Under the pieces are notes generated by a model. It had not been told where the DNA came from. It searched no databases and was given only the letters and a program-made list of their open reading frames with translations. The position numbers were made by a program, and so were the translations under genes. DNA of 58,946 nucleotides, counting the filler, from Dugesia japonica (Eukaryota): NCBI GenBank assembly GCA_001938525.1. It is 5 parts of 5 records of this genome, joined end to end, with 100 filler letters (N's around TTAATTAATTAA, not from the genome) between each part and the next. Parts side by side here need not be neighbours in the genome. Positions count along the whole stretch, not along the records: positions 1 to 19,233 come from MQRL01611244.1; 4 more parts are not named here. The stretch is one strand, 5' to 3'. This document shows, in pieces, positions 1-54,850 of this stretch; the stretch's first letter is position 1; each line of letters starts with the position of its first letter.

Positions 1-530
1 GCAATTTCATTGAACACTGCACACATGATAAAACAAGTTCTTTACCAAACAAGGTAATGAAAAATCGATAAATGCTTTACCAAAAATGATTTATGCATAC
101 AACCATTCTGAGCATAGACGTATTGGAAGATGAGGAAAGAAACCAGTTGATGTTATGGATGATGATGATTATACACAGTATTTCATAAATAAAAACCAAA
201 ATATAAAATTGGACAACATGTACAGATTTCTCGAATTAGTACTACACCATTCGTCAAAAACTTTGATAATAATTGGAGTGATGAAGTCTTTCAAATCTCA
301 GAAATCAACACGAGACAGACCCCAGCCATGTATGTAATACATGATGAAGATGGTATTATTATTCAAGGCAAATGTTATGAGCAGAAATCGCCAAATGTGG
401 CCAAAAAACCAAGTATATATTGAATCAAATCAATTCTCAAAACCAAAGGTCAAGGACAATACAAANNNNNNNTAGTTGAATGGCACGGGTATTCAAAATC
501 TACGTGGATTCAAGCATCTCAAATCCAATA
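1..530 (+). pseudogene. Polinton/Maverick-type integrase C-terminal region with chromo-like tail (degenerate)
   Basis: Frameshifted translation gives YAYNHSEHRRIG..PVDV, then NNWSDEVFQI..PAMYVIHDEDG..IQGKCYEQ and LVEWHGYSKSTWI. This matches the Polinton integrase pattern YNxxxH.SI...P.DV / NWSxE.F.I / G.FYExE / LVKW.GY...WI. Contains stops and frameshifts. Confidence 0.75.
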
Positions 531-607
531 ATGAGTTTCTATATGGTTTTGTTTAGTAATAGTTGTTCTAGAACTCGAACTGATAATAAAGTGAGCAAGT
601 ATTTAGT

Positions 608-860
608 TTCATTTAAAATAAAAGCTTCAATCAAAATTTTTTTAATATTGTTTTTTTAGATTAACTCGATATTTCAATATAAAAAGTAAATTCCTGACGA
701 AGAAAATGTCGAAATATCGAATCAAAAAATTTATTATCTCAAAAAAACAATGTAAAAACTTTTCCTTGAAGCTTTTATTTTAAATGAATTTTAAAAAACC
801 ATCAATGGTTACGTCCAACAATTTTTCTAGCAATAATTGCAATTGATAAAAAGTATTCAG
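608..860. mobile_element. Penelope-like element terminal (pseudo-LTR) fragment in inverted arrangement
   Basis: TTCATTTAAAATAAAAGCTTCAA (608-630) and its reverse complement (766-788) flank a hammerhead motif. The same family recurs at ~3408-3496, 23270-23355, 35789-35880, 38402-38478, 39510-39637 and 56320-56425. Confidence 0.6.
690..722 (+). ncRNA. Minimal type I hammerhead ribozyme (stem II mutated)
   Basis: attc-CTGACGA-a-gaa aat gtc-GAAA-ta-TC-gaat. Stem I attc/gaat pairs, the CUGANGA and GAAA core is present, and helix III is the palindromic AUAU. Confidence 0.6.
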
Positions 861-2279
861 TTGACTATGAGAATTCCATCAACTTAAAAGATTACCAGTG
901 GGAAGTTGCTATGACCAAATTTGTATTCAATTATTGTCCACAGACTATACAAAAAGTTTCGAAAATTGAATTTAAAATAAGAGAGGTGAAGGAAAATGAG
1001 AATCGATTTCAATTAAGTATTGTAGATGTTATGTTGCAACTTAATAATACCGTCCCTCTCAATAAATATAATTTGCATTTATTGTCCGAAGAAAAGAAAG
1101 TAATATTGAAAACATATTGTCAAGTAGAAATGGAGTTTAATTCAATATCCGATGCTAAAACTTTTGGATTTAATTTAATCAATACCAAAAATAAAAGGCC
1201 GTTATTTTCAGATAATATTCTTCAACCGTTTTATTACATGTTTTCCATGACATATTCTATGGGTAGTTTATCAAAATCTGCCCAAACAACTAATGAGTAC
1301 TTATAGCGCAGGCGTCATCATCTGATGTAGGTTGATGGAGATTGTAAATTCGATCCAAAACGAAAAATCTCAACAACCTACAAGCAATTCCTATTGATGC
1401 ATTGTTTTATGTTAATGATGATAAAAAAGGAAAGAAAATCCATACTCTCAACCATTTTTCCTGAGTCTTCGAATTAGTAATTATCCACACCATACATTAC
1501 ATAACATGTAGTATTTTGTCGTAGTTTTCGATCAAATCCATTTATTCAACTAACTTATTTGATTTTTTATTAATATAACCGCTAGATGAATTTGGAATCC
1601 TCATCGGATTATCAATATCAGAACTCGAATTCATAACAAGATTTATTAAAACAAAATCTATACATATAAATTTGTTTTTTCCAAACAAATTTAAAATTTT
1701 ATATTCAAAACAGAAAACATCAAATATCAGTATTTGCAAAACATTTTAAAATTTATCTGTCAAATTTTAAAAATACCTTTTATATATTTTATTTTATTTT
1801 AATTTATCCACAATTTATTAAATTTCAAATTTAAAAATACATTCTATATATTTTATCTTACTTGCTTATTTAAATATTTAACAAACTGATTTCAATAAAT
1901 TCTGCCTCAAAATACAAAAAATTGAATCTGCTTTTAAAATCTTCCTTTCAATAACTATTGTTAACTAATTCCCTGCGCAATACGCTTTGAAATTTCGTGC
2001 TCGTTGGGAACAAAATTTCGATTTTACTGCACTAAATGCGAAATATCACTTCCTTCTGCATAAAAGGTGCTCGTATGCACTATGTATCGAATGTAAAAGG
2101 TTGTGTAGAGCAGGAAAAAATTTAAAAACACATCGTGAATTAACACGCTTAGAGCGCGTATATACGTTTTTAGCAGCGAAAGGAATTTCAGAATGTCAAA
2201 AAAATCCATCAATCAGTATAAAATAAATAATTAAAATAATCAATAATTTTTAATTAAAAGTATCGAAAAAATCGAGATA

Positions 2280-2800
2280 CCAAAACAATCTAAAAGATAT
2301 TTTCAATCATTACTGTATAATCACAATTTTTGGACAAATTTTGTTCCAGAAATTGAACAGATCTCTATTTATTCAGGAAATCGGTTATTTACTTGCCAAA
2401 TTCGTATTTCTCTCGAAAGTTATGTAAAGAATCTATTTTTAAACTTGTAAGAATACATTATTGAAATTTGTTTTCCGACATTTCATATGATGCGTTTGAA
2501 TCAATTTTTGAATTGAAACAATTTTAGATACGATTAAACTATTGCTCTCAAACTTTACAAATGCGTTGTAAACAATTTTATCTCTTATTTTGTCTGTTGC
2601 ATCGTGCTTCAAGTACTTTTCTAAAATAATGTCGTTAGTGTTTCAGTGTTTGTAAAATTTCACGCCATACTTAAGAAGACCATTCAATCTTTAGTGGTAA
2701 TTTTTTCAAATGTTCCTTACATCAATTGTTTTTATCAGACCTATATCAAGTGGTCGCAGTAATACAGTCGCATTTTAGGTTCAACAAACTGACATTTAAA
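2280..2800 (-). mobile_element. pogo/Tigger DDE transposase remnant
   Basis: The minus strand reads TVLLRPLDIGLIKT, similar to the TSxLQPLDxGII motif of DDE_1 transposases. Heavily decayed, so boundaries are approximate. Confidence 0.45.
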
Positions 2801-3461
2801 GTTTATTTGAGTCCTTATTTAAGTCAAGTAAATAATTTTCTCTTAAGCCTACAAAGCACTTGTAAATAAATCTCAGCCATAAATATTTACTGCTGCAATA
2901 TTCAGTTTCAATTATTTTAAATAGAAATTATTAATACATCTCAGATTTTTAGATTTTTCAATAAATAGTAGAAAGTTTTGTCAACAAAACAAAATTGCAA
3001 TTCTTTCCTTTTCTATTTTACGCCTATATAACAAGGGTTAGCAACCTTTTGCTAACAATTTGTCGATACATGGTTCGAAATTATTTGACGTATCAACAAT
3101 ATGCATATTTTTAAACCACTCAAATCAATTTACCTGTTATATCGTTTATATTGCAGAGGTCAACAACCTTCAAACATAATCAAATTATTAATATTTAAAA
3201 TTTAAAACATAGAACTTGTCATTGATAATCGCTTGGCGTGCTGTGAGTTGCCAACCTCTGTTCTGGAGTTATCTTATTCAATAAAACGTTTTCGCGGGAA
3301 TTTTTGTGCTTAAATTCAATTTTTTAGTAAATGTATTTTTCATCTTTTTGCTTATCAATTGTTTATATGTTTGATAAATCTATAGATCTTGCTTCCCGAA
3401 AATAATTCATTTGAAATAAAACCTTCAATCAAAATCTTGTTTTTTTTTGGTATTTGATAAC

Positions 3462-3496
3462 AATTTGATATTTCGACTTTGCCTTCTTTAGGAATT
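3462..3496 (-). ncRNA. Degenerate minimal hammerhead ribozyme
   Basis: Minus strand aattc-CTAAAGA-a-ggc aaa gtc-GAAA-ta-TC-aaatt. The core G is mutated (CTGA>CTAA), so it is probably inactive. Confidence 0.45.
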
Positions 3497-3659
3497 GACT
3501 TTTTTTGCGAGTAAAAAAATAAACTAAATTTAAAATAAATTTAAAATCTAAATTATGTCTGTCTTTAAATCATTCAAACCAACCATTTGAAGCTTTCAAA
3601 TTAAGAAGATTAAGTTTAGAAGCAATCATATAATCAATTGATTTTATGACATGCAATTA

Positions 3660-4198
3660 ATTATAATATTTCTCTAGCGGACCCTTTGGAATAATTCAAA
3701 TATTGTTCTATTCATTTCTCTATGCTATTAAAATTTTATTACAATTTTCCACACTTAGCAATATAAAAACTAAAAATCGTGAACGATTAACAAATGTAGA
3801 AGAAGAAAAGCGTGTGGCTATTTCACACATAAGACCTGAAATTGAAGAAATTTGCAAATCATCAATCTCCATAATCCCATTAAACTCATTAAAGTCATTT
3901 ACGTATATAAATTTAATTTAAAAAACCCTTACTTTTATGTATTATGTAACAACGTGATTTTCAATAAATTCGATAAAAAAAGAAAAGTTAATTGTTCTTT
4001 ATTTCAGAATTTAATTCTAAGTTTCTACATTAAAAGTATTAAAATTGCACTTCAAATGTTATCTTTTTAAAAGCTTTCCGCTGAGAGAAGAGATACACCC
4101 TTCCAAACCATTCACTATAATGCTAAGCATATTGTGTTCCGCCAAAATCTTTGAAACTATAAATTGTTCCAGTTCTACTAAAAGATTAAGAACCACTG
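3660..4198 (+). mobile_element. hAT (Buster/Charlie-type) transposon 3' fragment
   Basis: FSTLSNIKTKNRERLTNVEEEKRVAISHIRPEIEEICK resembles the Buster-type hATC C-terminus. The fragment ends in TTAAGAACCACTG, the reverse complement of a CAGTGGTTCTTAA-type TIR. Confidence 0.7.
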
Positions 4199-5041
4199 CT
4201 ATAGAGTTTGTGATAGTAGAGTATTATTGGTGGAATGAATAAATAATCATGTTGTTGCATTTGTATAAACTGATACAAAATTCAGTTTTTCCATCGAAAA
4301 AATTCTCGAAATGGTGTCTTTGTCTCTGTTCTGTGCCTTTTCTAAGTTTCTTACTGAACACATCTTTATTATAAATTTCCTTTGATATTAAAATTTCTCA
4401 TGTATGCAATTTTATGTATTACATGTATTAAATACGCCGCGATAAGCATGCCGAATAAACACTTAAGTAAACCGAAGAAATCCCATTACCGGGCACCGGT
4501 TAGCAGAACTTCAATTGTTATGCTATGATCAATAAGTGAAGGTATTTCCCAACGCGACCTAACCAACAATCAAGTGAATCAGGTAATTTGAATTAAGAAT
4601 CTGTTAGCTGATTTTGAGATACCCTTTGTCTATTTAATGATGAAAGTTCTTCAAAGGCAGATACTTCTAAGAGAGGTTGAAAGAACCTATACGAATTGCC
4701 TCAAATACGCAAGAACCCAGATGGGAAGTGGAGGACTCTTTCTTCCGCTGTAAATGCATAAGGTTGTCTCTAAACAAACTCAAGCCAGGCGCAGTTGACA
4801 CTACTCACGTAATAAGTACTAACGAGTGCTGCTTAACTTTAAAATGCCACTATAAAGAAATAATTATTATTTTATAATTTTAGGCAATAGAATATGATCA
4901 AATTCCATTTTAAAATGTAATCAGTTCTATTTCAATTATAATTATCTTACTAAGCATGGGTTATAGTAGAGAAATAAATAATTACTAAAAATATTAATTG
5001 TGATTTGGAAAATAAATTACCAATTAAAGATTTATTTAACA

Positions 5042-5054
5042 TGGTGGCAGCGGT
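5042..5054 (+). promoter_or_regulatory. Primer binding site (tRNA-Leu type)
   Basis: TGGTGGCAGCGGT directly follows the LTR-terminal CA and is complementary to the 3' end (ACCGCTGCCA-CCA) of eukaryotic tRNA-Leu(AAG/TAG). Confidence 0.75.
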
Positions 5055-5490
5055 AAATAACGATTCTATTAGAGAGAGGTTATTGCCGAATGTGTTCTGC
5101 AGGGGATATGATATTGAAAAATTCATCAAGCAATGTGAACTTTATTTTGAAGCTAAAAACATCATCCTCTTGTTTGTGATATGAAGAATATGTAGAGTTT
5201 GAAAATAATTGAAGGTTTTCAGGCTCGTTTATGTATGGCATTTGAGAAAAAAAAGATGTTATCAAAGATTTCCAAAATTTGATTAACTACATGCGTGAAA
5301 TTGAAGAAATTCAAGTTTATTTTAAAAATGTAAAAGATTTAGTAAAAAGATTATTTACAAATAAAGACTTTACTGATGAAACATGGTAACAAAGATGATA
5401 GTATATTGTTCAGATAACAAAAAAGTTGAAGAAGAAGTGACTTTGCGGAAACGAGAGAATATAAAGAAATTGAAGAAACAATGACCTTAG

Positions 5491-5895
5491 TATTAGGTTT
5501 TCACATATGAAATATCCGATTTTAGAACTCGTTTTTTAAACTAATATATTTTTATTTAATATTTAACATTTAGAACTTATTTATATATTATTTTGAAGGT
5601 GAAANNNNNNNNNNNNNNNNNNNNNNNNNNNNNNNNNNNNNNNNNNNNNNNNNNNNNNNNNNNNNNNNNNNNNNNNNNNNNNTAAAAAATACGGAAATGC
5701 GAACATTATTTTTATATGAATGGAAATTAAAGCATAACCCAACAGAAGCTGCCCGAATTTGCATTTGGAGAGGGTTCAGCTAATAAAAGAACTCTTCGGA
5801 GATGGTTCGACAACTTTCAAAAGGGTGATTTAACCCGGGTCAATATGGAAAGGGGGCGCCCCAGGGTTGTCATTAGCAACGACAATGTAAAACGT
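5491..5895 (+). mobile_element. mariner 5' fragment nested in Gypsy gag
   Basis: TA+TTAGGTTTTCACATATGAAA TIR-like start, then EMRTLFLYEWKLKHNPTEAARI..FGEGSANKRTLRRWFDNFQKGDF..RGRP (Mos1-type HTH domains and GRP motif). Confidence 0.8.
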
Positions 5896-8800
5896 GAATA
5901 TAATAGATCTAATAAAGAAAAACAGAGATCAAGTTTATGTAGTTAGAAATTACACAAGAGTTACAAGTCGAAATAATCAGAAACCTGTAATTCATACAGT
6001 TAATATACATGTGGATCAAAGAAAAGAAAATCAAAATATCGAATGTAGGTTATGTCGTAAGATCGGTCATACTAAAGCTAATTGTCCGACAAAAAAGTGG
6101 TAGAGTGCAGAAGTTGTCATAAAACAAGACATATAAGTCGAGATTGTCCAAACAAAAAACCAACAAAATGTTTTGGTTGTGAAAAGGTTGGCCATATTAG
6201 AAGGTNNNNNNNNNNNNNNNNNNNNNNNNNNNNNNNNNNNNNNNGACATAGAGCAGAAGAGTGCTACACAAATTTGAAAATGAAAAGAACAAGTGGAAAC
6301 ATTTATGGATATTACGATGGATATGAGGAAATATATGAAAGTAATTCCGAAAGGCAGTATCCAAAAGGCAGGGTTCCACCAGTAGAGTAGTTGGTTGGAG
6401 CCATCCATTGTTGAATCAAGTGAGTCGAAAAGTTGGATGATATCGAAAAAGTTACAGAAAAAGTAAACAGGTTCTTACAGAGCGAAATTTGGGTATGATA
6501 GAAAAGTAAAATGGGTTAAAACAATTGAAGCAGAAAAGAAAATAAATATGTCGTTCTTTAAATTGCAAGGCAGACAAAGTGTTACGATATCAATTCAAAG
6601 AAAAAAAGTTGAATGCTTATTAGATATAGAGGCTAGAATTAACGTTATGAGTTTGAGTTGTTTTAATAAATTACGAGAAGTACATTTAAAAATGAGTGAT
6701 GAAAGATTTCATTGTGCAAATAATAGTACACAAGAAATTGTTGGAAAAGTTAGAATTGGAGGGATAAATGATGAAGTTTGCAAAGAGATTACTTTCTTAA
6801 TTGCTGAAAGAGTGACACCAGATCTGATAGAAGAATAGATATGCAGAGAATTTTTAGATACCAGTTTATGCAGAAGGTTGATAGCAAAACGAATAAAAAA
6901 GTCAAAAATTACATTTGCAATATTGAAACGAAATTTGGGAGACAAATTAAAAAGGAACAGCGATTGACAAGAGCCTTAAACACTTTAAAGATTAAAGACG
7001 ATCAACGGATTTTAAAAAAATTGGAAGTAAAGAAGATGCTTTTATGGCAGATAAATGGGATGTAGNACGCACACATCTAACAAGACACAAAATAATCACA
7101 AGAGGTGAACCAATCAATGTAAAACCGTACAGGCAACTAATGACTTTAGAATCTAAAATTGAAGAAGCTTTCCAAAACCTTTTCGAGAATAATATTATCT
7201 CCAATGTATTTGTTGCGAAGAACTTGTGGAGCCAAATATAGAAGATAGTTTGTAGTTGTGAAATTCGTCAAAAGACTAAAAACCGCTACTAACGAGAAGA
7301 CAAAGAGATTAGAAGCTATAAATTTGTTTGAAGTCATATTCACAGATATATGTGGGCTAATGGAAGAAACAAGTATACAAAAAAATACATTCTTGGAATA
7401 ATCGACCAGTATAGTAAATATTTGTTTCTTTTACCATTGCCTAGACAAGACAAGGAAACAATACGAAAAGCTATTTTTGAAAAGTGGATATTGAGATTTG
7501 GATGTCCAAGAGAGATAAGAGTAGATTGTGAAAAAGCTTTTGAATCCAGAGTTATGGGAGAGTTTACAATGAAGCTAGATATTAAACTTTGCTTTTCGAG
7601 TCATTATCATCATAATGCAAACGGACAAATTGAAAGACAATTCAAGATTTGATTAATGCAACACTTCAGGAAAGAATGACAAAAAATTAGGCAGATCTTT
7701 TACCGGAAATAGAATTTACACTAAACGCAACAAAGTAGAAGGCGGCTGGGAACAGCCTAGCTGAGATCTTATTTGGAAAAAAAATTAGCAGAGAAAAATG
7801 GTATGAATCAGACGTTTCAGATAGAACTAAAGAAAACACTTCGAACGTGATTACTAAAAGAGTATTCAAAGTGGGTGATTTTGTACTCATCAAGATAAAA
7901 ACAAGAAATAAAAGTCAACACAGATTTGAAGGACCTTATAGAATAACTGAGAAGATTCATGAAAGTTGGTTTGCAGTACAAGGAGAAAATGGACAGCGAT
8001 TGGAAAGAAATATGGAAAAACTCAGAAATTAGAGTATTAAAAAAAATAATTAATGTTTAATAATTTTAGCCAATAGAATATGATCAAATTCCATTTTAAA
8101 ATGTAATCAGTTCTATTTCAATTATAATTATCTTACTATGCATTTGTTGTAGTAGAGAAATAAATAAAGTCTAAAAATAATAATTGTGATTTGGAAAAGG
8201 AATTACCAATAGAAGATTTACCTAACAGCCACTATTTAAGTTTCAAATTTTAAACAGTGATAATTTTTAAAAAGGTGTTTTTATGATTTCCATTATAGTA
8301 AAGACTATTAAAATTTTGTTAAATGTTTCTCAAAATGTGAGGTTATAACTTCCACTTCTTTCTATAAATTCTCATTTCTTTGTACAAATTTTATTGAAAC
8401 TTATGTTTTCTGAGTTAATTTTCTTCAGTATATTGTTTGATGTTTATTATTTTAAAGCTCTTATTGCGATAAAATTTTAATTGTTTACCTTAACATCAAA
8501 TAAACATCCGCCTAAACCAAAACTGACCCAATTAAAATTTATACAATTAATTATCAATAAATTTAATACATAAATAAAATAATTTTTTTATAATATTTAA
8601 AATTTTTTTAAAAATTTATAACCAAATTAAGAGAGCAGCACTTTTTATACTAAACATTTACTTTTTATTAGTATTAAAAAGTGAATAACTGATTACAAAT
8701 CAATTTGATAGGTTGTTTCTAGTTCTTAGTTTTTTCAAAGCTTATTTGTTATGTTTTATGATTTCATGTGAATTTTTTTCCAGCAATTAACAATTTAGTA

Positions 8801-9226
8801 TTGACTGTGTATATGTTTCAATTTATTATTTTTTAAAAACTAATTCTCATTATTTTTAATTGTTTATTTTAATTTCAAATTTAACAGTTGTTAACATATG
8901 GTCATGTATATTTTTTTATTTGATGTAAAATTCGCAGAATTGAAAGATTGAATCGAAATTTTTATTTAAACTTGTAAATAATTTTTACAAAAATATTGCA
9001 CCTTTAAAAATATAATTCTTTCATATTTAAATAATTTTTAAATTTCGTTCGAAATGAAAATTAATTATAAAAAACAAATAATTTTGCACAATGCCAAATT
9101 TGTGTAAAATAAAATTACAAAAATATATAAAAATCATGCATTAACATTTCTATCATTTAATTACTTATTTTAATAATACTTTCTTAATTCTAGAAATTGA
9201 TATTAGAATAAGAAAGTAATAATTTA

Positions 9227-9405
9227 TGTTTGGGTTACACCTGAGTTAATTGAAGATAGTCGTGGCTGGGGAAAAACAGCCCTCAGGGGAACCCTTTCAA
9301 GAATTTAACCTGACGCCCCTGGGTCAGGTGTTCAGTATATGGTGGTTGACCTCTCTCTTAATGGGAGGTGCGCGCCCATAGGCCTTTTATTTGGGTTCAC
9401 TATTT
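9227..9405 (+). ncRNA. Conserved multi-stem terminal structure of the cargo element (copy 1)
   Basis: Stems GGGTT..CCTGAG/CTCAGG..AACCC, CCTGAC/GTCAGG, and TATGG/CCATA enclosing ACCTC/GAGGT. Conserved with compensatory changes in copy 2. Strand inferred from G-U pairs only. Confidence 0.5.
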
Positions 9406-9478
9406 TCCGTAAAGTTACACATAAAATTCAAACCAAAGATACTCGAAAACATTTATTAGTATAATATTTATAACTCGT

Positions 9479-9822
9479 CTAGGACGCCAGGGTCATCATC
9501 TCGATCATCAACAGTTCGAGAGGTATTCTTTCCCGGAGAAGTAAAATATCGTTAACCAGTTTATTTTCTCGGTCATGGCTGAACCAGATAATTTCCGCAA
9601 AGGACTCAACCTGTTTCTTCCAGGCTCGCTCCTGCAAGTGAGAGGTTTCGGCTTCCTTTAAAAGCGACACACTTTTTCTTATAACGAATCACCTTACTGT
9701 TGGCGGTGGCCANCTTTGCCTNCCATCGACGTTTTGCCAGTCGATATAGGTCTCAAGTGAGCTCTATGTCCTCACTGGTGTCTCTCAATTTTTTCGTGGG
9801 AGCGAATTCAAAGAGGAATGCA
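9479..9822 (-). pseudogene. Orphan ORF-C, copy 1 (helical/coiled-coil-like, disrupted)
   Basis: APTKKLRDTSE..T*DLYRLAKRRW..KVIRYKKK..EAETSHLQER..HDRENKLVNDI..PLE aligns with copy 2 (17307-17665). One stop and one frameshift. AG acceptor at 9823-9824; AATAAA at 9452-9457. Confidence 0.6.
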
Positions 9823-9992
9823 CTAAACGTTTATAATTATAATCAATAGAATACACTATGCTTAGAAAATACATCCTCATATTAATGTGGAATAGAAGTT
9901 TCCGTCAGACAATGCACATTGAAATGAAGAAAAATAACATAAGAGAGTCACTTATTTATTTTTTAAATACACAAACAACAAAAAAATTTTTA

Positions 9993-10340
9993 TTATGGAT
10001 TCAAAGTAATACCAACATTAGGAGCGGTGTTCTCGACATCGCTAACACAGAACGGCTCTCTCACACCCCAGAGTAAATTGGAGATAAAAGCTTGTACCAC
10101 TGAGGGAGGAGCGGGAGGTTGGTAATTAAATGCCGTAGTATGTGTGCGTACGGGTCCGTTCCATTTTTGGAAACGTACCCTCTCGCCGAAGTTCTGAATG
10201 CGAGCTACCATCGCCTCCACGGGGGGTAAATTAGACCTATCCACTAAAATACCAGCATCTCTATTATGCAGATTATAGTGGCGTCGGAAAATCACCCTGC
10301 GAGTTCTTCTATCTATTACTTGCTCCCAGATAGATTCCAT
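9993..10340 (-). CDS. Orphan ORF-B, copy 1 (115 aa, Arg-rich N-terminus), intact
   Basis: 46/54 N-terminal residues are identical to 17912-18190, with many synonymous differences. Acceptor-like TTAG lies 2 nt before the ATG, and the stop overlaps AATAAA. Confidence 0.8.
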   Translation of the reverse strand: MESIWEQVIDRRTRRVIFRRHYNLHNRDAGILVDRSNLPPVEAMVARIQNFGERVRFQKWNGPVRTHTTAFNYQPPAPPSVVQAFISNLLWGVREPFCVSDVENTAPNVGITLNP

Positions 10341-10496
10341 TTCTAAGTAAAGAGTGATAATAATTAGTACTAACGAAATTCATAGAAATCAGCATTATGA
10401 TATCAAAAAAAAATTTATATAAGTAGTTATTCTAATATAAAAAACGTCGAAAAGGTTTTATATATAATTTATTTTAATGATAGTAATGAACAATGA

Positions 10497-10679
10497 TCAG
10501 CTCTCAACTAAGTCTACTCTTCCCGGTAAGGGGAACATCTCGGTAAAACAACAAAGGTCTGTCTCATCAGGATGCTCGATTCTCCCTTTAGTTAATAGAT
10601 GAGCTATTGGTTGTCTTAATCGGGGAGTTTGGCGTTGTTGTTTTATCCATCGAAGGGTACGACGCAACTCTGCTGGCAT
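10497..10679 (-). CDS. Orphan ORF-A, copy 1 (60 aa), intact
   Basis: Same length as 18357-18539 and 27/60 identical without gaps (RLRQxIxHxL, ExPDETDLxCFxExFPLP). TTAG lies 3 nt before the ATG; AATAAA at 10468-10473. Confidence 0.75.
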   Translation of the reverse strand: MPAELRRTLRWIKQQRQTPRLRQPIAHLLTKGRIEHPDETDLCCFTEMFPLPGRVDLVES

Positions 10680-12945
10680 GAACTAAGAAATTAAACCATT
10701 AATCGCAGTTATTAACCCATGATTTAATCCCCTACAAAGAATAGCTGCTACTGTCTGTTATTATTAATATNNNNNNNNNNNNNNNNNNNNNNNNNNNNNN
10801 NNNNNNNNNNNNNNNNNNNNNNNNCATAATAACCTTATTAGGAAAAATAATAATAGTTATCACACCAATAACAATGGTTTTAATAGTAATAATAATATAT
10901 TTGATTATAATAATGATAATCCTAAACCGTACAACGAGTAATTATCAAACTTTTACTAAAATGATGGTGATGATAATCTTCAGACTGATGCTAATATTAG
11001 ACTAAAATTATACTAATAAATGCGGTAATAATACCTTTCACTAATCTGATGAGAAAAGTAGTCCAGTAATGCTAAGGCAATAATAACAGGTACTCCTTTT
11101 ATTAATAACAATCACTATAATGATAGTAGTAATACTAAACTTAATAATTCTAATAATAATAATACTAATAATAATAGTAATAATAACATTAATGATAATA
11201 ACAATAATTATATTGGTATCATCTTTTGCTAAAGTTATCAAAATTGTGAGGGATGATGAATTTTCGTCTTTTCCCTTGTAACAAAAAATCATACTTTTTT
11301 AGTGGAGTAAATTTTAATAAATTAGACAAAATTAATTTTTTAAATGATCGCGGAGTGGAGTTGCCTAGCACCACAAAAAACAATGTAGTGGCTAGTATTA
11401 CACACAAGAATTGAATGATAGTAGGTGTGTATGCAAAAGATGAATTATTTTTCTATCTAATCGATTGATTTCAATCGGATTGCTATGGCGAAATTATCCA
11501 CTACGGCAACTCAAGTCGCTATAATGAGTGTCTGATTGTTTATATCTATAGGGAATTTGGGGGAATGACTCAGGCTCATAGTCGGATTAAATTTACTAAG
11601 TCCTTCAATTTTGTAGATCCTGCGATCGAGAATATGATACATAAATAAATTGATTTGACTAAAAATTAAAAACCTCATTTCATTGATAATAAAATATTTT
11701 CATATTAAAATAATAATTAGAGTTAAAATTCCATATCATTAAGCTTTAATTTTGTATTAATTCACTATAACATAACAGAACACTTACTATAAAATTTTCG
11801 ATAAGATTTCTGCAACGGTTGCTACCAATAAAAGGNNNAATGAACAATTTTTTGGTAATTGATAACGAAAGTCCCAACTTCTGCTGTTTTATTAAAATTG
11901 AAATCAGCTCAAGATTTAATGAATAGAATTACTTTGATGCGCGATAACTGATCACGTTGATTTCCAATTGTTTTTATCGTAGTAAAATTCTGCCGAGAGT
12001 TTTCCTTTTTGAGAAATAACGAATATGCGGTTTTGACGTTTGGATTGTTTATTAATTTTAAGAGAGATTTAGTAGTGTTTTTTGTGTGTGTTTCTGCTAA
12101 TTTCATGATTCCTTATATATGACTTTTCCTTGCACCCCAACTTCTTTCATATTCGTTGGTTATCTTTAACTAGAATTTTCGACTTCCTATTGGTTCTAGT
12201 GCCAATTTTCTAAAGAATATTTGGAGTTTTAGCGTTCCAATTGGCGGTTATTTTTAAAACCTCATGTGACCGATTGTGCTTTGTCTTATTTTTATTTTCA
12301 GGTTCCTTATTGGCTCAATCTTGAAATCCCTGCAGCAACCTTCTGGATGGTGGTAAGATTTTCTTCTTAACAAATTCTAATGCTTCTTACTATTTTCTTT
12401 CTGGATTTTTTTACCCGAACTCTCTCTGATTTTCCTGAGCAAAGTTATTCGTGTAAAACGGATTTTTGANNNNNNNNNNNNNNNNNNNNNNNNNNNNNNN
12501 NNNNNNNNNNNTGGTAATTAATTATTTTCCCATAATGATTTTCTTGACTTTTTTTATTAATTTAATAATTCTTTTTAATTCTCAATATTGATGTATGCTA
12601 GTTTAATTACGCCCGGTTCTTCGTATCCATCTCCAATTTTATTTTATTCTTTTCTAATGGTTATTTTCATTATATCCTACCCAGATCTTAATTGCTTCTC
12701 CTTTTGCATTTCATTATTGGTAAATATAATGGCCCTACTGTTCTTCTTTGCTGATTTGGGTTTTTGGCCTTATTTTCCTTTTTTAACGGGTGTTTCACCC
12801 CAACATTTATAAAAAAAATAATTCCGCAAGAACACTATTTGAAGAAGTGAGAGCTTTTAAAATATTTTAATTGATCGAAAACTTGATTATTAAAAATTTT
12901 TATAATTATTTGTGAAGTAATTTTAATTAAATATAGTAATAATAT

Positions 12946-14060
12946 TGTTAGATTCCAAAAAGAGATAAAATCTTACTCCCAAGATTTATCTGATTTAACA
13001 ACTTTATCAACATTAACTGTAGTAATAAAAATATATGGAAAAAGAAATAAGCATAAAAAATATATTTAAATCACAAAATGATACTGTAACAAATATATAT
13101 AGCTTTTTTGAAATCAGTTATGCAATCATGTCTGAGCAATAAAATCATGCACACATTCAAACAGCCAACTACGCATTTACCTATTATCACATACATATGT
13201 CAATTTGAAAGGTAAATATGAAAATATTATATTATTCTTAGTCATATCTCACATTCCCCTCTTTTAAAGTGTTTTAACCATTCAATATTTCTTATTATTT
13301 TACCATTAATATGTTTAATTTAAAACTCCTATCACGTATTTTCTCTATAATTATTGCTGGTCCTTCATATCTGTTTTCATTTTTATGTAGACTTTCTATT
13401 TTAGTTAAAAATTCGTCACCAATATTAAATTTTTTACGTGTATTATTCTTTTCTAAGTTTTTGAAATTTTCATAGTTATTTAAATTGTTTATTATTTTTT
13501 ACGCTTTAGATTTCTTTCATTTACATTGTTTTTATCATTCCTAACTATCCATTCTTTGTGTATATTTTCCCCAAAAACTAATTCAGATTGAGATACATTC
13601 GTTGTTCTCTGAATTGTGGTGTTCAACATAAATTCTATTTCTGATAAAATAATGGCCCAGTCCTGCTTTTTCTTATCCTGTAAACTAATATGATGTCTTT
13701 ATCTTATTGTCTTTTAATTATTCAACTACTACTATGATGATATGGACTAGAGTATTGGATTTCACAATTAAATTCCTTGGCTAATTGTTGGAACAGATTT
13801 GATTCAAATGATTTTCCATGATCTGTATGTATTATTCTCGGTGCACCATATTTCAAAATCCAACTATTTTTAATATTTTCATCATGATGTGCAACTGCAT
13901 TGAGAGATATAAATCCAATGAATTTATCAATTATAGCTAAAATGTATTGTTTTTCATATAAAGTTTTCTTTAAACTACCACAAAAATCAATATGAATGAT
14001 TTCAAAGATGTCATCAGCTGGATTTATTTGTTTTTATTTAAAAAATCTTCCTAATGATGC
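12946..14060 (-). mobile_element. Ty3/Gypsy 3' fragment: integrase, polypurine tract and 3' LTR
   Basis: Minus strand IHIDFCG..YILAIIDKF..WILKYGAPRIIHTDHGKSFES..SSPYHH..RYEGPAII. PPT AAAAGAGGGGAA (13254-13265) is followed by TGTGAG (LTR start 13253). The LTR probably ends ..TAACA at 12946. Confidence 0.8.
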
Positions 14061-15660: not shown

Positions 15661-16602
15661 CCAATTCTGAATTTTTTTGTAATCAAATGAACTTAAAAAT
15701 TATTAATTTATTTCTTTCTGAATAATTTATTCATTAAATAATTAAAGTAATATAAAAGATAAAATTAATAAATCGAAAGTAATGAAATAAATTTCAAAAT
15801 ATTAACACGTTAAAATATTTAAAAATTTTAGCAAAAATGAGTTAAATATAAAANAATAAAATTAATGAAGTTAAAATAAGATTTTTAAAAAATTTTTTAT
15901 TTAAAAAATACTTTAAGTTAAAGTTGAGTCTCAAATTGTTTAGCTTATTTTATCTTTCACTATTTAGTAAATATTTCAATGATTTATAAACTTTTCAATT
16001 AAACGGTGAGCGTCATTGACTCACTTAACAGTGTGCATTCATTAAAATCAGTGAATTTAAACAAAATATATTTAAATTTTCAACATATTTTATTTGATGA
16101 TTTTCTGAATGTAATACTACAAAAATAGAATGTCACATTGTTTAAATGTTATTTTTGTTTTTACCAACAAATGTACGCGCTTTAAATTTCCTAAATTATC
16201 AAGTGATTCAATCTAGTTCATTTTAGATTACATTTTTTTTTAATAAATTAAAATATCAATTGTCAGTTATCTGCGATCAAAAAATCAATTATAATTTAAT
16301 TATTATTTTTTAGGGAGTAATATAGTGATTAGTATTAAATTAATTTTTGTATGTTACGTAAACATAAATTACGGTGGTAAATAAAATAAAAATACATACA
16401 AAATAAAGTATGTTATCAAAAATTAAAGTAATATTTTGGCGGTAGATCAGATCGCGATAAATAGGGGTTTCGCTGTACTGTCATTTTAAAAAGTCATTTT
16501 TCAATATTAAAGGAATTTTTAAAAAATAATGTACAAGAAATACATTTTTATAATGGAGATTATCAATTTTTACAAAAGAAACCTCTTTTTAATGTATATT
16601 AT

Positions 16603-16783
16603 TGTTGGGGTTCTATCTGAGTTTGGTCACAAATAACGTGACTGGGGAAAAAACAGCCCTCAGGAGACCCCTTCAAGAATTTAACCTAACGTCCGTAAGT
16701 TAGGCATTCAGTATGTGGTGGTTGACCTCTCGCTTAATGGGAGGTACGCGCCCATATACCTTTAAATTTGGGTTCACTATTTA
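16603..16783 (+). ncRNA. Conserved multi-stem terminal structure of the cargo element (copy 2)
   Basis: GGGG.TCT.TCTGAG/CTCAGG.AGA.CCCC, CCTAAC/GTTAGG (16685-16690/16699-16704), and GTATGTGG/CCATATAC enclosing ACCTC/GAGGT. Confidence 0.5.
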
Positions 16784-16841
16784 CCCTATTGTCATTACTA
16801 TATTAGATACTTTAACACGAAAAACTTTATTTCATATGAAA

Positions 16842-17224
16842 CTAGAGAAGACCTAATACACCAGGGTCTAGCCACTGGCCTGGATTCGTCTTTAAAAAGT
16901 TAAAAGAATCTATGTCATCCTCATCATTCCATTGTATCCACGTGGGATTACCCATCTGGCGGGAAAGGTCGGATATATACTGTTTAAGAAACTCAATCTT
17001 CCTCTGAAGCAATAATTTATTCTCATCTTCCAAAGTCTTGGTCTGTACCGCCAGGTCGTGCTGTTTTTTCACGATCTGATCGAGTTTCTTAATCAGACGA
17101 TCTCGCTGGTCCAGAAGCTTAATTAGTGCTCTATCGGTTTTCCGTTTTAACTGACGCTCTAAAAGCAGATGGCGCATTATGCGATGGCACCTTCGCAAGC
17201 TGCTCGGAAAATTAATGCGGGGTA
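16842..17224 (-). CDS. Orphan ORF-D (coiled-coil protein, ~110-127 aa), copy 2 only
   Basis: Open frame from an AG acceptor at 17225-17226 to the stop at 16842. Heptad-like Leu/Ile spacing (LIKLLDQRDRLIKKLDQIVKKQHDLAVQTKTLEDENKLLLQRKIEFLKQYISDL). AATAAA at 16826-16831. Confidence 0.6.
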
Positions 17225-17306
17225 CTAAAAGAAATACCTNNNNNNNNNNNNNNNNNNNNNNNNNNNNNNNNAAAAAAATTTAGTTATGGCCAAACATTTA
17301 TTGGTA

Positions 17307-17665
17307 TCAGGAACGTGGGGTCTGGCTACTATTGTCAACTATTAGTGGTTCAAGAGGCATGGCAGCCTTTAGGTTGTGAATGTCTTGTACCAATTTATTT
17401 TCACAGTCATGGTAGGACCGGATCATCTCTGTTAACGATTCGAGTTGAGCCTTACAGACTCTTTCTTGCTTATGGGACGCCTCGGCTTCTGACTTGAAGG
17501 TCATTTACTTCCACTTATAACGCCTAACCTTGGCATAAGCGTTTGCAACCTCAGCTTCCCAGCTTAACTTCGCTAACTTATACAGGTCCCAAGTTTCTAG
17601 GTTTCGTCACTGGAAGCTCTCACTTTCTTGGTTGGGGCCTGAACTCGGTTTAAAGATGATTGCAC
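17307..17665 (-). pseudogene. Orphan ORF-C, copy 2 (disrupted)
   Basis: APTKKVRASSD..ETWDLYKLAKLSWEAEVANAYAKVRRYKWK*MTFKSEAEASHKQER..HDCENKLVQDI..PLE. One frameshift, one stop, and the acceptor AG appears mutated to TG. Confidence 0.6.
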
Positions 17666-17843
17666 AAAAAGAAGTGAAAATTAATCAAATACTATGAGCT
17701 AAAATATCGATTTCTCACGACCGATGCTGTCGGGATACATTTACAAATCATCCCTAATAAAAAATGATTTTTACACAAAAAAAATATGATGTAATCAATC
17801 TGGAGACAACGAGATATTTTATTACAACTAAACAGATAAGTCC

Positions 17844-18190
17844 CTAATGTGAAGTCGATAAATCAGTCATGGGTGCGGCATTCTCCGAATCCTCGCTACC
17901 CGAGGGTTCTCTTACTCTCCAAAGCAGATTATTGATAAATGCCTGTATGGCGGGGGCTGGGCTGAAGGTTTATATTGAAATGTCGTAGCAAGGGCTCGAT
18001 CGGGACCCGTCCAACTTTGATGATTACGACGCTCCCCAAAATCCTGTATCCGGGCTACGATGGCTTCCACTGGGGGTAGATTTGACCTATCGGCCAAGAT
18101 GCCTGCGTCACGATTGTGGGGATGAAGATGACGTCTGAAGATCACTCGACGAGTTCGTCTGTCGATTACCCGCTTCCATATAGACTCCAT
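17844..18190 (-). CDS. Orphan ORF-B, copy 2 (one frameshift near 17950)
   Basis: Track ORF 17912-18190. Changing frame near the G run at ~17952-17956 restores IQAFINNLLWRVREPSGSEDSENAAP..SH*, matching copy 1 VQAFISNLLWGVREPFCVSDVENTAP. Confidence 0.75.
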
Positions 18191-18356
18191 TCTGCAATAG
18201 AAATTGATTTAAAAGCGCAAAGTATAGATAGATATTTATAAAATTTTAAATAAAGGANNNNNNNNNNNNNNNNNNNNNNNNNNNNNNNNNNNNNNNNNNN
18301 NNNNNNNAACAAGGCTATATTTTATTTCAATTATCAATGTTTTATCAAAGCACATG

Positions 18357-18539
18357 TTACTTCCGTTCGGTATGAGTTTTTTCTGGCAAGGGGAACAGCT
18401 CGACGAAACATTGTAGATCGGTTTCGTCGGGGTTCTCCACTAACTCCGGAAATAAGGAGTGGCCGATAAGCTGTCGGAGTCGCGTGCGTTTCCGCGGCTT
18501 CAAAATGATACTCAGGGCCTTCGTTAAATCACTTGGCAT
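18357..18539 (-). CDS. Orphan ORF-A, copy 2 (60 aa), intact
   Basis: Homologue of 10497-10679. TTAG lies 3 nt before the ATG; AATAAA at 18321-18326. Confidence 0.75.
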   Translation of the reverse strand: MPSDLTKALSIILKPRKRTRLRQLIGHSLFPELVENPDETDLQCFVELFPLPEKTHTERK

Positions 18540-19233
18540 ATTCTAAATAATAAGAAATTAACTCTAGGTCGACTCAACATAATTATGGGCCTATCGATTT
18601 AAAGCTAAGTTTAGTGAGGTAATTCAACGGACGGGTCACAATTTCTGAGAGGTAACCTCATTTAATACAAAAATTTAGCCCAGCGCAGGATTCAATGCCT
18701 GGCCTAGCAAAGTTGTGGACAGTGATAATCCCGTTATTAATTATCAATGACCTGTAGGGGTAGTGGTGCTAATCGTAATTCTCTCAACAGTAATGTCCCT
18801 TGATGAGAATTCACAAAGTTAACAATAACACCTAAATTAATCGGAACAATGATAAAGTTAGTAATAACATTAAATGTGAGTAGGATAGGGTTATTGATGA
18901 CTAATAAGTATAATAGTAATTATAATAATAAAAGTCGTCATAATAAGATAAGGTGATACTAATGAACCAAATCATTAACTTTAATGTGGAAATTGATAAT
19001 CCCCTGGGTCATATTTAGTAGAAATTGAGTCAGTATCGATGGCTTGGCCAACGTGGGGTGATAATCCTACTAAGTTAACCGAATATAAGGACCCCAATGT
19101 CCAGGATGCCTATGTGGTTGATAACTATTAATCGTGATGACAGACTTAGGATTCTTCCTTGTTTGTTAAGCCATAATAGAATTTCAAAGTTCGACATAAG
19201 GACATCACATTTTTATAGCAACACCCTAAAAAA

Positions 19234-19333
19234 NNNNNNNNNNNNNNNNNNNNNNNNNNNNNNNNNNNNNNNNNNNNTTAATTAATTAANNNNNNNNNNN
19301 NNNNNNNNNNNNNNNNNNNNNNNNNNNNNNNNN
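19234..19333. other. Artificial contig-joining spacer
   Basis: 44 N + TTAATTAATTAA + 44 N = 100 bp. The motif has stops in all six frames and is identical at four places. Confidence 0.95.
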
Positions 19334-21995: not shown

Positions 21996-22626
21996 ATTCA
22001 ATTTTTTGTCGTCTCAGTTGAAAGTTCATCTTATAATATTTTTCTTAATTACAATTAAATTGAAAATAATTGAAATTCAGTGGTTAAAAAATATAAATAA
22101 TGAATATTAACTTTTTAATTGGAATTTTGAAATCTATTTGGCTAATTTACAATTGTTAATTATTGTAAAATGATAAAATAATTTGCAAAAATGTGTCAAT
22201 TTAAATTTTATATTAAATTTATTTAATTTAAATGAATTAGTTTTTTTAATTTAATATTTAAAATGAACAATTTTATAATTTATATATTAGTTGAGTTCAA
22301 ATTAAATAATTTTATATGGAATATAAATATTTGATATATTTAGTGAATTATATTTTAAAATTTTACGGTAATAAATTTTAACAATAATAATTAATTAAAT
22401 TTGTTAGTGAAAACGCTCTTTGGTGTTTGAATATATAAATCATAATCATAAAGTTTTTTCAAATAGAAAATATAAATAAATTAAAACTATTATTTTCACA
22501 AATTAAACTTTTTTTTAATTTTTTATTTAAAATTTTTCATTTTCAATTTTTTGTTGATTATTTGTAGAGAAAAAACTTTAACAAATTATCTACTCTCCTA
22601 ATAAAATTAACTTTATTATTTTCTAG

Positions 22627-53710: not shown

Positions 53711-54850
53711 AATGACAAAGTTCAACACAAGACTTCCTTTTGTAAATGAATATAAGTTTGAAAAAGCACCAACGTAGAAGGAATTCATTTATTGGAGATG
53801 CATTATTCCAGAATGCAACTTAAAATTGAAAACAAGCTATGATGCTCTGATCTTCATAAAGGGAGTTCACATTCATATTGCAAAAGAACATCAACAGGCA
53901 GAGAGCAATTTAAACTGTGAAATAAAATAATTGCTACTCACCATTTCTATTCTGCAAATAAATATACGACGTGACAATGATAAAAATGAATACATTGCTG
54001 CGTGAAAACGCAGATAAAGCAGGGATATTGAATAACATACAATCATTTGACAGTGCGAAATCGTCAATTTATTCTCAAAAACACAAAATGTTTCCAGTGT
54101 TTATCCAGTGATAAACAACAATAGATTTTTTGAGCTTGATCTAAACCTTTGTAAAACACTAGAAGGAAACAATTTTTTTATGGATTATTTATCAGATAAA
54201 AGGGAGCTGATTTTTGCTGATATTTTATTTCTTTCAAAGCTAAATCTCAAAAATGCAGTATTCCATATAGATGGAACATTTAAAGNNNNNNNNNNNNNNN
54301 NNNNNNNNNNNNNNNNNNNNNNNNNNNNNNNNNNAGGCCAATATTTTTCTGCTTTATATTGTTTCTTAAATGATAAAGCAGAACGAACTGATGAACAAAT
54401 ATTCATAAAGCTTGTGTTGACGTTAAGGAACAATAATATATTAATCAATCCTAGCAACCTAATCATGGATTTTAAGTATGCTTCATTCAATGCGATTAGA
54501 AAGTTTTGGCCTGAAACTCTCATTAAAGGCTGTTATTTTCATTTTGGGTAAGCTTTATGGAAGAAATTAAACTCAAAAGGTCTCAGACAATTATAAGCCA
54601 GCTCTACCGAGTTTAGATCGGTAGTGAAATTATGTATATATTTGCCTTTAGTATCAATTAATAGACTAGAAAAGGTTTGATCTATTATTTTGTCAAAATC
54701 ATAGAGCATAATATATCTGATTTTTTTAGAATATATTACTAACAATTGAACTTCTAGCTCTAAGCCGATGTTCAATAAAGAGATATGGAATAATTTTGAT
54801 AACATATGCTCGGGTATTAATAATATAGCTGAAGGCCTTCGTTGTTCTAA
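53711..54850 (+). mobile_element. Mutator-like (MULE) transposase remnant with FLYWCH-type zinc finger
   Basis: FIYWRCIIPECNLKLKT..HIH (FLYWCH), FHIDGTFK, IMDFKYASFNAIRKFWPETLIKGCYFHFG*ALWKK and NNIAEG. Confidence 0.9.

What the first reader, a model, noticed from the sequence alone, without database searches (positions are those of the whole stretch)
9227..9405. Terminal ~180-nt multi-stem structure with compensatory substitutions
Seen: this is the best-conserved non-coding block between the copies (9227-9405 vs 16603-16783). Stem CCTGAC/GTCAGG (9309-9314/9323-9328) becomes CCTAAC/GTTAGG, a double compensatory change, while its loop diverges. The terminal stem GGGTT..CCTGAG/CTCAGG..AACCC becomes GGGG.TCT.TCTGAG/CTCAGG.AGA.CCCC. 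TATGG/CCATA enclosing ACCTC/GAGGT is retained. Most non-Watson-Crick positions read as G-U on the + strand (one exception), which would make the ORFs antisense to the structured RNA. Inference: a cis-acting RNA such as a packaging, export, strand-transfer or ribozyme-like element.
Basis: partly seen in the sequence, partly recalled or inferred. Interest (0 to 1): 0.7.

Follow-up and report, generated by a model that had tools for sequence, protein, structure and literature searches.

The report
Folded RNA at giant LTR end
A 180-base stretch at one end of a 3.6-kb high-copy repeat in an AT-rich animal genome (likely the solo long terminal repeat of a giant retrotransposon) keeps its predicted hairpins while their letters change, so it likely acts as a folded RNA signal that the element needs in order to replicate.

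Summary
The structured block is real and more than chance, but it is a transposable-element terminus, not a host RNA. Copy 1 is the first 180 nt of a bounded element, 9227-12805, with TG...CA ends, short inverted repeats and a 4-bp TTTA duplication: likely a giant solo LTR. It carries small, purifying-selected ORFs on the minus strand, each followed by AATAAA. The block is 82% identical between copies while synonymous sites in those ORFs are saturated. In a whole-genome run the core is a high-copy repeat, and four base pairs show compatible changes on both sides across the family, against 0.7 expected (marginal frequencies, no linkage). No Rfam family, ribozyme core or Pol III B box matched. 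The + strand is modestly favoured as the folded strand. Best reading: a cis-acting RNA at the start of U3, likely a protein-bound export or packaging signal like betaretroviral response elements. Orientation (PPT or PBS side), host species and function are not shown. I found no description of this RNA in the papers searched.

The parts
9223..9226 (.). left target-site duplication TTTA of copy 1
9227..12805 (+). copy 1: bounded element, likely a giant solo LTR (3579 bases including 101 N in gaps); starts TGTTTGGG, ends CCCCAACA
   Evidence: 1 such end+TSD site seen, 0.023 expected by chance
12806..12809 (.). right target-site duplication TTTA
9227..9406 (+). structured block, copy 1, ending in a T run (9403-9406)
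9228..9298 (+). H1, long irregular terminal helix (9228-9245 with 9282-9298), enclosing a variable segment and H2
   Evidence: two-copy evidence mainly, 5' arm thinly covered
9264..9281 (+). H2, 5-bp hairpin with a GGG(A)n loop; part of the most conserved core 9262-9308
9308..9329 (+). H3, 6-7-bp hairpin with a C-rich loop; two pairs change on both sides across the family
9335..9383 (+). H4, long hairpin with two 2x2 internal loops (UG opposite GC); two outer pairs change on both sides across the family
9490..9800 (-). ORF-C remnant of copy 1 (broken by stops, frameshifts and N), followed by AATAAA at 9452-9457
9993..10340 (-). ORF-B, 115 aa, no known family; one outside homologue (P0121)
10497..10679 (-). 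ORF-A, 60 aa, basic N-terminus and conserved hydrophobic C-terminus; no known family
11788..11832 (+). candidate TATA (11788) and AATAAA (11827) ahead of a T-rich ~900-nt right end; possible U3/R/U5 border if + is sense (inferred)
16603..16783 (+). structured block, copy 2; element starts TGTTGGGG at 16603
16842..17239 (-). ORF-E, coiled-coil-like, copy 2 only apart from its last codons; 5' end in a gap; AATAAA at 16826-16831
17307..17650 (-). ORF-C of copy 2 (in-frame stop), AATAAA at 17297-17302
17870..18190 (-). ORF-B of copy 2 (frameshifted near 17955)
18357..18539 (-). ORF-A of copy 2; the element then runs into assembly gaps at 19234 and its far end is not seen

Best explanation
The block is the first 180 bases of a 3.6-kb high-copy repeat, likely a giant retrotransposon LTR, and it likely folds on the + strand into a four-helix RNA that would sit at the start of U3, just after the polypurine tract of the genomic RNA, where it likely acts as a protein-bound signal for export or packaging. 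Shown: bounded ends with TSD, high copy number of the core, selection on the block, pair-compatible variation in H3 and H4, real antisense ORFs. Inferred: that the repeat is an LTR of a Gypsy-type element (no gag/pol or internal flank was seen); that + is the sense strand; that the structure works as RNA. Speculative: that the ligand is one of the small basic proteins encoded antisense in the same LTR (ORF-A is the best candidate), as Rec/Rem-type proteins bind response elements at the start of U3.
For: Ends TGTT..AACA fit the LTR consensus TGTTRNR..YNYAACA (PMC3601003, passages; copy 2 start and copy 1 end match fully, copy 1 start has one mismatch), with a 4-bp TSD. Depth rises at the TG start: 5-25 in the flank, over 1,000 at 16588-16619 and 59,000-72,000 in the core; peak 855,000 on copy 1. 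The block is 82% identical while ORF-B and ORF-A synonymous sites differ at 0.80 and 0.86. Family variation in run X7: both partners change compatibly at 9312/9325 (91%, 74%), 9313/9324 (A>C 38%, T>G 25%), 9336/9382 (45%, 33%) and 9337/9381 (A>T 59%, G>A 50%): 4 of 33 pairs against 0.69 expected, p 0.002; 11 of 15 stem rows are compatible against 4.3, p 0.0008. One single contig of run X8 has H3 arms ATCCAA/TTGGAT around the same C-rich loop. For + as sense: G.U states at 9346/9372 and 9354/9364 in both copies; better z-scores on +; 5 of 5 ORFs with a clear stop have a minus-strand AATAAA within 33 nt (background 12%), and the ORF regions hold 11 minus against 2 plus AATAAA, signals that a minus-strand genomic RNA would have to read through. 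[quoted passage not shown]
Against: No PPT or PBS was seen at the terminus in either lay, so orientation is open; R and U5 are usually better conserved than U3 (PMC3601003), which fits the opposite orientation. The + strand also has AATAAA at 11015, 11316, 11644 and 11688. The pair-compatibility count does not tell the strands apart. 4 of 15 stem rows are incompatible (9308 A>C 50%, 9330 to C or T, 9338 T>C 19%), so the base of H3 is doubtful. Frequencies are marginal, from collapsed contigs, and subfamilies are not independent. The few RNA reads (41 of 13.6 M, 3 of 10.5 M, 15 of 11.6 M) have first mates mostly on + in X13 and X16 (12 + to 3 - in X16), which in the usual stranded protocol means minus-strand RNA. 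The arginine run of ORF-B is not kept in its homologue P0121. No protein-RNA binding was tested.
Confidence: 0.42

Rival explanations
1. Same LTR, opposite orientation: the minus strand is sense, the ORFs are U3 accessory genes, the last AATAAA (9452 / 16826) is the LTR polyA signal, and the block is a ~200-nt U5 whose helices act in the 5' leader next to the primer-binding site or in minus strong-stop DNA during strand transfer.
For: [quoted passage not shown] The last AATAAA is followed by a GT-rich stretch on minus in both copies. The minus-strand fold of copy 1 also resists the substitutions (p 0.01). The few polyA reads lean to minus-strand RNA if the libraries are stranded.
Against: Each ORF has its own minus-strand AATAAA, which would cut a genomic RNA short. 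No TATA shared by both copies before the last AATAAA. Minus-strand folds are weaker (z -0.9, -1.0), and the shared G.U pairs become mismatches.
Confidence: 0.24
2. The block is transcribed on its own by RNA polymerase III from + as a ~120-180-nt RNA that ends at the T run, like the Pol III small RNAs in foamy virus LTRs (or adenoviral VA RNA, recalled), and acts in trans, for example against host RNA silencing.
For: Conservation stops just after a T run that is T4 in copy 1 and in 92-96% of family depth (16783 A>T). GAACCC (9289-9294) can pair with the tail GGGTTC (9393-9398) to close a two-hairpin RNA. Foamy virus LTRs carry Pol III miRNA genes with A/B boxes and terminators (PMC3993851, passages).
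Against: No B box within one mismatch in either copy, and no A box at a shared place. The hairpins are too short for pre-miRNAs. No pile-up of starts or ends in four RNA runs, though three are oligo-dT libraries that would miss such an RNA.
Confidence: 0.14
3. The 3.6-kb unit is not an LTR but a whole non-autonomous DNA element or small integrated DNA virus with TG..CA ends (Ginger-like or Polinton-derived), and the helices form in single-stranded terminal DNA as a replication or packaging signal.
For: A row of separately polyadenylated small genes looks like a DNA-virus cassette. No gag/pol is linked to either copy in the window. Ginger termini follow TGTNR like Gypsy LTRs (PMC2836005, passages).
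Against: The inverted repeat is only about 8-15 bp, against 40-270 bp in Ginger1. The TSD is TTTA, not CCGG/CCGT (Ginger1) or the RTATAY target of Ginger2. No relative in viral contigs. Frequent G.U states suit RNA better than DNA.
Confidence: 0.1
4. The conservation is at DNA level (integrase end, enhancer or protein sites) or from gene conversion among copies, and the helices are incidental.
For: Stems and loops differ equally between the two copies (p 0.54). Copy 1 z is only -1.34, and two other windows of the element reach z -2.9 and -3.4.
Against: Transversion-with-transversion partner changes at 9313/9324 and a transversion restoring 9337/9381 across the family; p 0.002. Integrase needs only the terminal 8-15 bp (PMC3601003).
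Confidence: 0.07
5. It is a self-cleaving ribozyme that processes the element's RNA.
For: H2 stacked directly on the 3' arm of H1, with possible long-range partners, recalls a nested pseudoknot (by eye).
Against: No Rfam ribozyme match on either copy up to E 10. No hammerhead, twister, pistol or HDV core motif on either strand (motifs recalled).
Confidence: 0.03

Closest known systems
Burro/GYPSM1 giant Gypsy-like LTR retrotransposons of planarians (PMC6431247, section 7 read in full)
   Same: Multi-kb LTRs implied (25 kb internal, over 30 kb in all), thousands of copies, accessory ORFs; S. mediterranea is over 70% AT (PMC11410931, passages).
   Different: No Burro sequence could be compared and the host is not established. 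The section mentions no antisense ORFs or RNA structure inside the LTR.
Rev-like response elements of beta- and deltaretroviruses (PMC5568270, passages; names RcRE, RmRE, RxRE recalled)
   Same: Structured RNA near the start of U3; small basic proteins encoded by the same element.
   Different: Their proteins are sense-strand products with an arginine-rich motif and an export signal; here the ORFs are antisense inside the LTR, have no detectable homology, and binding is untested.
Pol III small RNAs in foamy virus LTRs (PMC3993851, passages)
   Same: Multi-hairpin RNA in a long LTR ending in a T run.
   Different: No A/B boxes found, hairpins too short for miRNA processing, no transcript seen.
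Plant Retand/Grande elements with antisense accessory ORFs (PMC11963269, abstract and passages)
   Same: Gypsy elements with conserved antisense ORFs of unknown function.
   Different: There the ORFs lie between pol and the 3' LTR and mostly encode TRP28; here several tiny ORFs lie inside the terminal repeat.
Stem-loops at LTR borders: Sire/HIV PPT hairpin and U5-IR (PMC3601003, passages)
   Same: Structure involving the first or last bases of an LTR.
   Different: Those are single hairpins that pair with sequence outside the LTR; this is a 180-nt self-contained four-helix unit.

Membership tests
LTR (Gypsy/retroviral type) | TG...CA ends with a short inverted repeat, consensus TGTTRNR...YNYAACA | tested here: met
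   one mismatch at the copy 1 start
LTR (Gypsy/retroviral type) | short target-site duplication | tested here: met
   TTTA on both sides of 9227-12805; 0.023 expected
LTR (Gypsy/retroviral type) | occurs as direct repeats around gag-pol with PBS and PPT | tested here: inconclusive
   copy 1 is solo, copy 2 ends in gaps, no terminal flank row; no whole genome held
LTR (Gypsy/retroviral type) | promoter and polyA signal with a downstream GT/T-rich stretch | tested here: inconclusive
   candidates in both orientations
Burro/GYPSM1 | sequence identity to Burro LTRs, or linkage to the giant polyprotein | not testable with these tools
   no repeat library or genome held; the primary paper is not held
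Burro/GYPSM1 | planarian host | tested here: inconclusive
   Rab27 exon: flatworm and fish hits score alike (101 vs 99 bits, 58-71% identity); GC 18-38%
Rev-like response element | location near the start of U3 | tested here: inconclusive
   true only if + is sense
Rev-like response element | binding by an element-encoded protein and export of unspliced RNA | not testable with these tools
   needs binding and reporter assays
Pol III small RNA gene (type 2) | internal A and B boxes | tested here: not met
   no B box within one mismatch in either copy (consensus recalled)
Pol III small RNA gene (type 2) | T4 terminator at the 3' end | tested here: met
   9403-9406; 92-96% T at 16783
Pol III small RNA gene (type 2) | discrete short transcript | tested here: inconclusive
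   59 partial reads in four RNA runs, no start/end pile-up; mostly oligo-dT libraries
Known self-cleaving ribozymes | catalytic core motif or Rfam match | tested here: not met
Ginger DNA transposons | 40-270-bp TIR with CCGG/CCGT TSD (Ginger1) or RTATAY target (Ginger2) | tested here: not met

The most novel reading that the evidence does not exclude
A giant invertebrate retrotransposon LTR is a self-contained regulatory module: its first 180 nt form a Rev-response-like RNA, and the same LTR encodes, antisense and as separately polyadenylated mini-genes, the small proteins that read it. That would be an independently evolved Rev/RRE-type system outside vertebrate retroviruses, copied thousands of times through the host genome.
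Probability: 0.17. Interest if true: 0.82.

Novelty: new variant of a known kind. Interest (0 to 1): 0.55.

Why it matters
How very long retroelement RNAs leave the nucleus and are packaged is largely unknown outside vertebrate retroviruses. A compact RNA with thousands of natural variants is an unusually good substrate for covariation analysis and reporter tests. An LTR that carries its own cassette of orphan antisense genes is itself unusual. If the host is a planarian, this would be a handle on Burro-type elements, reported as among the most active in stem cells (PMC6884822, passages). If it proves to be an ordinary U5 structure, the interest falls to about 0.35.

Tried and rejected
Rfam: no match at gathering score in the window. 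At E up to 5-10 only weak hits, among them the Na+ riboswitch on 9264-9329 (13.5 bits against a 40.5 cut-off, E 2.2, copy 1 only), treated as chance. No tRNA. DNA patterns found nothing in viral, metagenome or prokaryote contigs; ORF-B patterns found no confirmed locus, so no deeper alignment of full sequences could be built and no covariance model was made. Word-index protein searches found nothing for ORF-B or ORF-E. Pfam gave nothing under E 0.001 for the six element ORFs scanned; PDB sequence search best E 0.017; the ESM Atlas gave no usable hit. The AlphaFold model of ORF-B was unusable (pLDDT 37), so no fold search was run. No RNA holder was listed in the run index. nhmmer found no third copy in the window. 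Considered and dropped: that the two copies are the LTR pair of one element around the integrase remnant at 13722-14033 (copy 1 has its own TSD, synonymous sites are saturated, and that remnant has its own polypurine tract near 13260); ORF-B as the Rev-like protein (arginine run not kept in P0121); a long-range helix 9301-9308/9391-9398, since family variants at 9308 and 9392 break it. A loop-loop pairing of the H2 GGG with the H3 CCC fits all variants seen, but no compensatory change tests it. Earlier scan findings: none in five look-ups. Literature: eight full-text searches listed no paper on an RNA structure or antisense ORFs in planarian giant LTRs; I saw listings only for most hits. The primary Burro paper with its supplements, and repeat-database entries, could not be seen and may describe the LTR ORFs.

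Full report
Observation. The two copies exist where stated. 9227-9411 against 16603-16788 is the only blastn hit between them at word size 9, and 150 of 182 columns are identical. I set 46 pairs by eye in four helices from base-pair probabilities. Ten differ between the copies: 2 double compensatory, 4 single changes kept as G.U or Watson-Crick on +, 4 broken. There are two A.C exceptions, not one, and stems are not significantly more conserved than the rest (p 0.54). Folding z-scores are -1.34 and -3.12 on +, -0.89 and -0.98 on minus. Pairs predicted from copy 1 alone survive the substitutions of copy 2 far better than random placement (2 broken of 46 against 9.5; 0 of 5000 shuffles). The reverse test is not significant (p 0.21), and the minus strand of copy 1 also passes (p 0.01).

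Context. The window is AT-rich animal DNA (GC 18-38%) with Ig/LDLa-type exons, a Rab27 exon and small Gypsy remnants. The host is not established. A planarian is plausible from composition and from contig totals of 0.68-0.93 Gb in X1 and X7, but Rab27 does not separate flatworms from fish. Copy 1 is bounded: TTTA, TGTTTGGG at 9227, CCCCAACA ending at 12805, TTTA again; 0.023 such sites are expected by chance. The ends fit the LTR consensus (PMC3601003, passages) and not the Ginger rules (PMC2836005, passages). I read it as a solo LTR of at least 3.6 kb; this is inferred, since no gag-pol flank was seen. Copy 2 starts TGTTGGGG at 16603 and is lost in gaps at 19234.

Genes inside. Beyond the block the copies stay about 62% alike through small minus-strand ORFs. 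ORF-B has pN 0.17 and pS 0.80 over 76 codons; ORF-A has pN 0.35 and pS 0.86 over 54 codons. The proteins are therefore under purifying selection, neutral sites are saturated, and the 82% identity of the block itself means selection. Five of five ORFs with a clear stop have AATAAA within 33 nt on minus (background 12%), and the ORF regions hold 11 minus against 2 plus AATAAA. ORF-B has one homologue among 1.84 billion representatives: P0121 (E 3e-10, 37% identity, on a 512-base ENA contig). No family or usable fold was found.

Family-wide evidence. Laid on copy 2, two whole-genome contig sets show summed depth of 5-25 in the flank (16492-16587), 1,200-1,900 across the TG start, 59,000-72,000 in the core and about 100-3,300 in the ORF region. 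On copy 1, run X7 gives 3,312 contigs and a peak of 855,000. The tool warns that this is no copy number; a rough correction for overlapping contigs gives about 2,000-5,500. Of 26 variant rows at 10% or more in X7, 15 fall in the 33 pairs of H2-H4 and 11 are compatible with pairing (4.3 expected, p 0.0008). Four pairs change compatibly on both sides (0.69 expected, p 0.002), including A>C at 9313 with T>G at 9324 and A>T at 9337 with G>A at 9381. Four rows are incompatible (9308, 9330 twice, 9338). One single contig of X8 has H3 arms ATCCAA/TTGGAT. In X16, 9 of 15 reads change 9278 and 15 of 15 change 9280, in the 3' arm of H2, and by eye the loose letters before them would restore the pairs. 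The A.C exception at 16705 is a minority state (77-85% T). These are marginal frequencies from related subfamilies: strong support, but no substitute for R-scape.

Strand and orientation. The compatibility count is the same for both strands. For +: G.U pairs shared by both copies (9346/9372, 9354/9364), better z-scores for H3-H4 (-2.8 and -3.3 against -1.3 and -1.7), the minus-strand polyA signals that a minus genomic RNA would have to pass, and a TATA/AATAAA pair at 11788/11827 ahead of a T-rich right end. For minus: U5 is normally the conserved end, the last AATAAA has a GT-rich tail, + also has upstream AATAAA hexamers, H1-H2 of copy 1 scores better on minus (-2.8 against -1.9), and the few RNA reads lean to minus if the libraries are stranded. 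I put + at about 60-65%. Expression is very low in the runs laid: 41, 3 and 15 reads among 10-14 million each, almost all partial, with no start or end pile-up. X13 and X16 are oligo-dT libraries, and polyA selection under-reports LTR elements (PMC6884822, passages).

Mechanism. If + is sense, the block follows the polypurine tract at the start of U3 and is present once in the genomic RNA, where beta- and deltaretroviruses place their Rev-like response elements (PMC5568270, passages). H4, with two purine-containing 2x2 internal loops, and the near-invariant core 9262-9308 look like protein-binding or tertiary surfaces (inference). I therefore favour a protein-bound export or packaging signal (0.42), with ORF-A as a speculative ligand. 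Rivals: a U5 or strong-stop structure (0.24), a Pol III RNA (0.14; T4 kept but no B box; precedent PMC3993851), a DNA-type element (0.10), incidental structure (0.07), a ribozyme (0.03). Taken together, 'structured cis element at an LTR terminus' stands at about 0.7.

Comparison and novelty. The nearest known elements are the planarian Burro/GYPSM1 giants (PMC6431247, section 7 read), but membership could not be tested. Antisense accessory ORFs are known in plant Retand elements, outside the LTR (PMC11963269). Rfam has no match. Eight literature searches listed no description of this RNA or of an antisense cassette within such an LTR; the primary Burro paper and repeat-database entries were not available. 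Verdict: a real feature, a new variant of a known kind (structured LTR cis RNA), interest 0.55.

Noticed in passing
window 9410-10700 and 16800-18560: A cassette of three to four orphan mini-genes inside the presumed LTR, each with its own AATAAA and under purifying selection. ORF-B starts with a W-x4-D motif that recalls a WW-type hairpin (recalled, untested). This may be as interesting as the RNA.
   Followed up: partly
window 9480-9496 and 16851-16867: Both copies end their last ORF with DPGVL codons; copy 1 lacks the rest of ORF-E, which suggests a deletion in copy 1 or a duplication in copy 2.
   Followed up: partly
window 12783-12800: The far end of copy 1 has a small GGGTG/CACCC hairpin overlapping the terminal inverted repeat.
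   Followed up: no
window 10825-11230 and 18760-19050: AAT-rich low-complexity segment at the same place in both copies, which could be a decayed N-rich or hydrophobic ORF or a tandem-repeat region.
   Followed up: no
window 4846-8235: Small Gypsy remnant on + with 188-bp direct repeats (4854-5041, 8040-8227; 90% alike), a PBS-like TGG motif after the first, a zinc knuckle, protease-like and integrase pieces, and an 8-bp GCCACTAT on both sides.
   Followed up: partly
window 13100-14050: Minus-strand integrase remnant with a polypurine tract and TG near 13260; the weak Rfam mir-310 hit at 13200-13272 (31.5 bits, cut-off 48) falls on this LTR start and is likely spurious.
   Followed up: partly
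window 16300-16460: A separate moderate-copy repeat just upstream of copy 2, with a few RNA reads mostly in one direction.
   Followed up: no
window 41885-47136: Minus-strand multi-exon gene with Ig and LDL-receptor-A-like repeats (perlecan-like layout, recalled); Rab27 exon at 22568-22852; MULE transposase remnant at 54051-54551.
   Followed up: no
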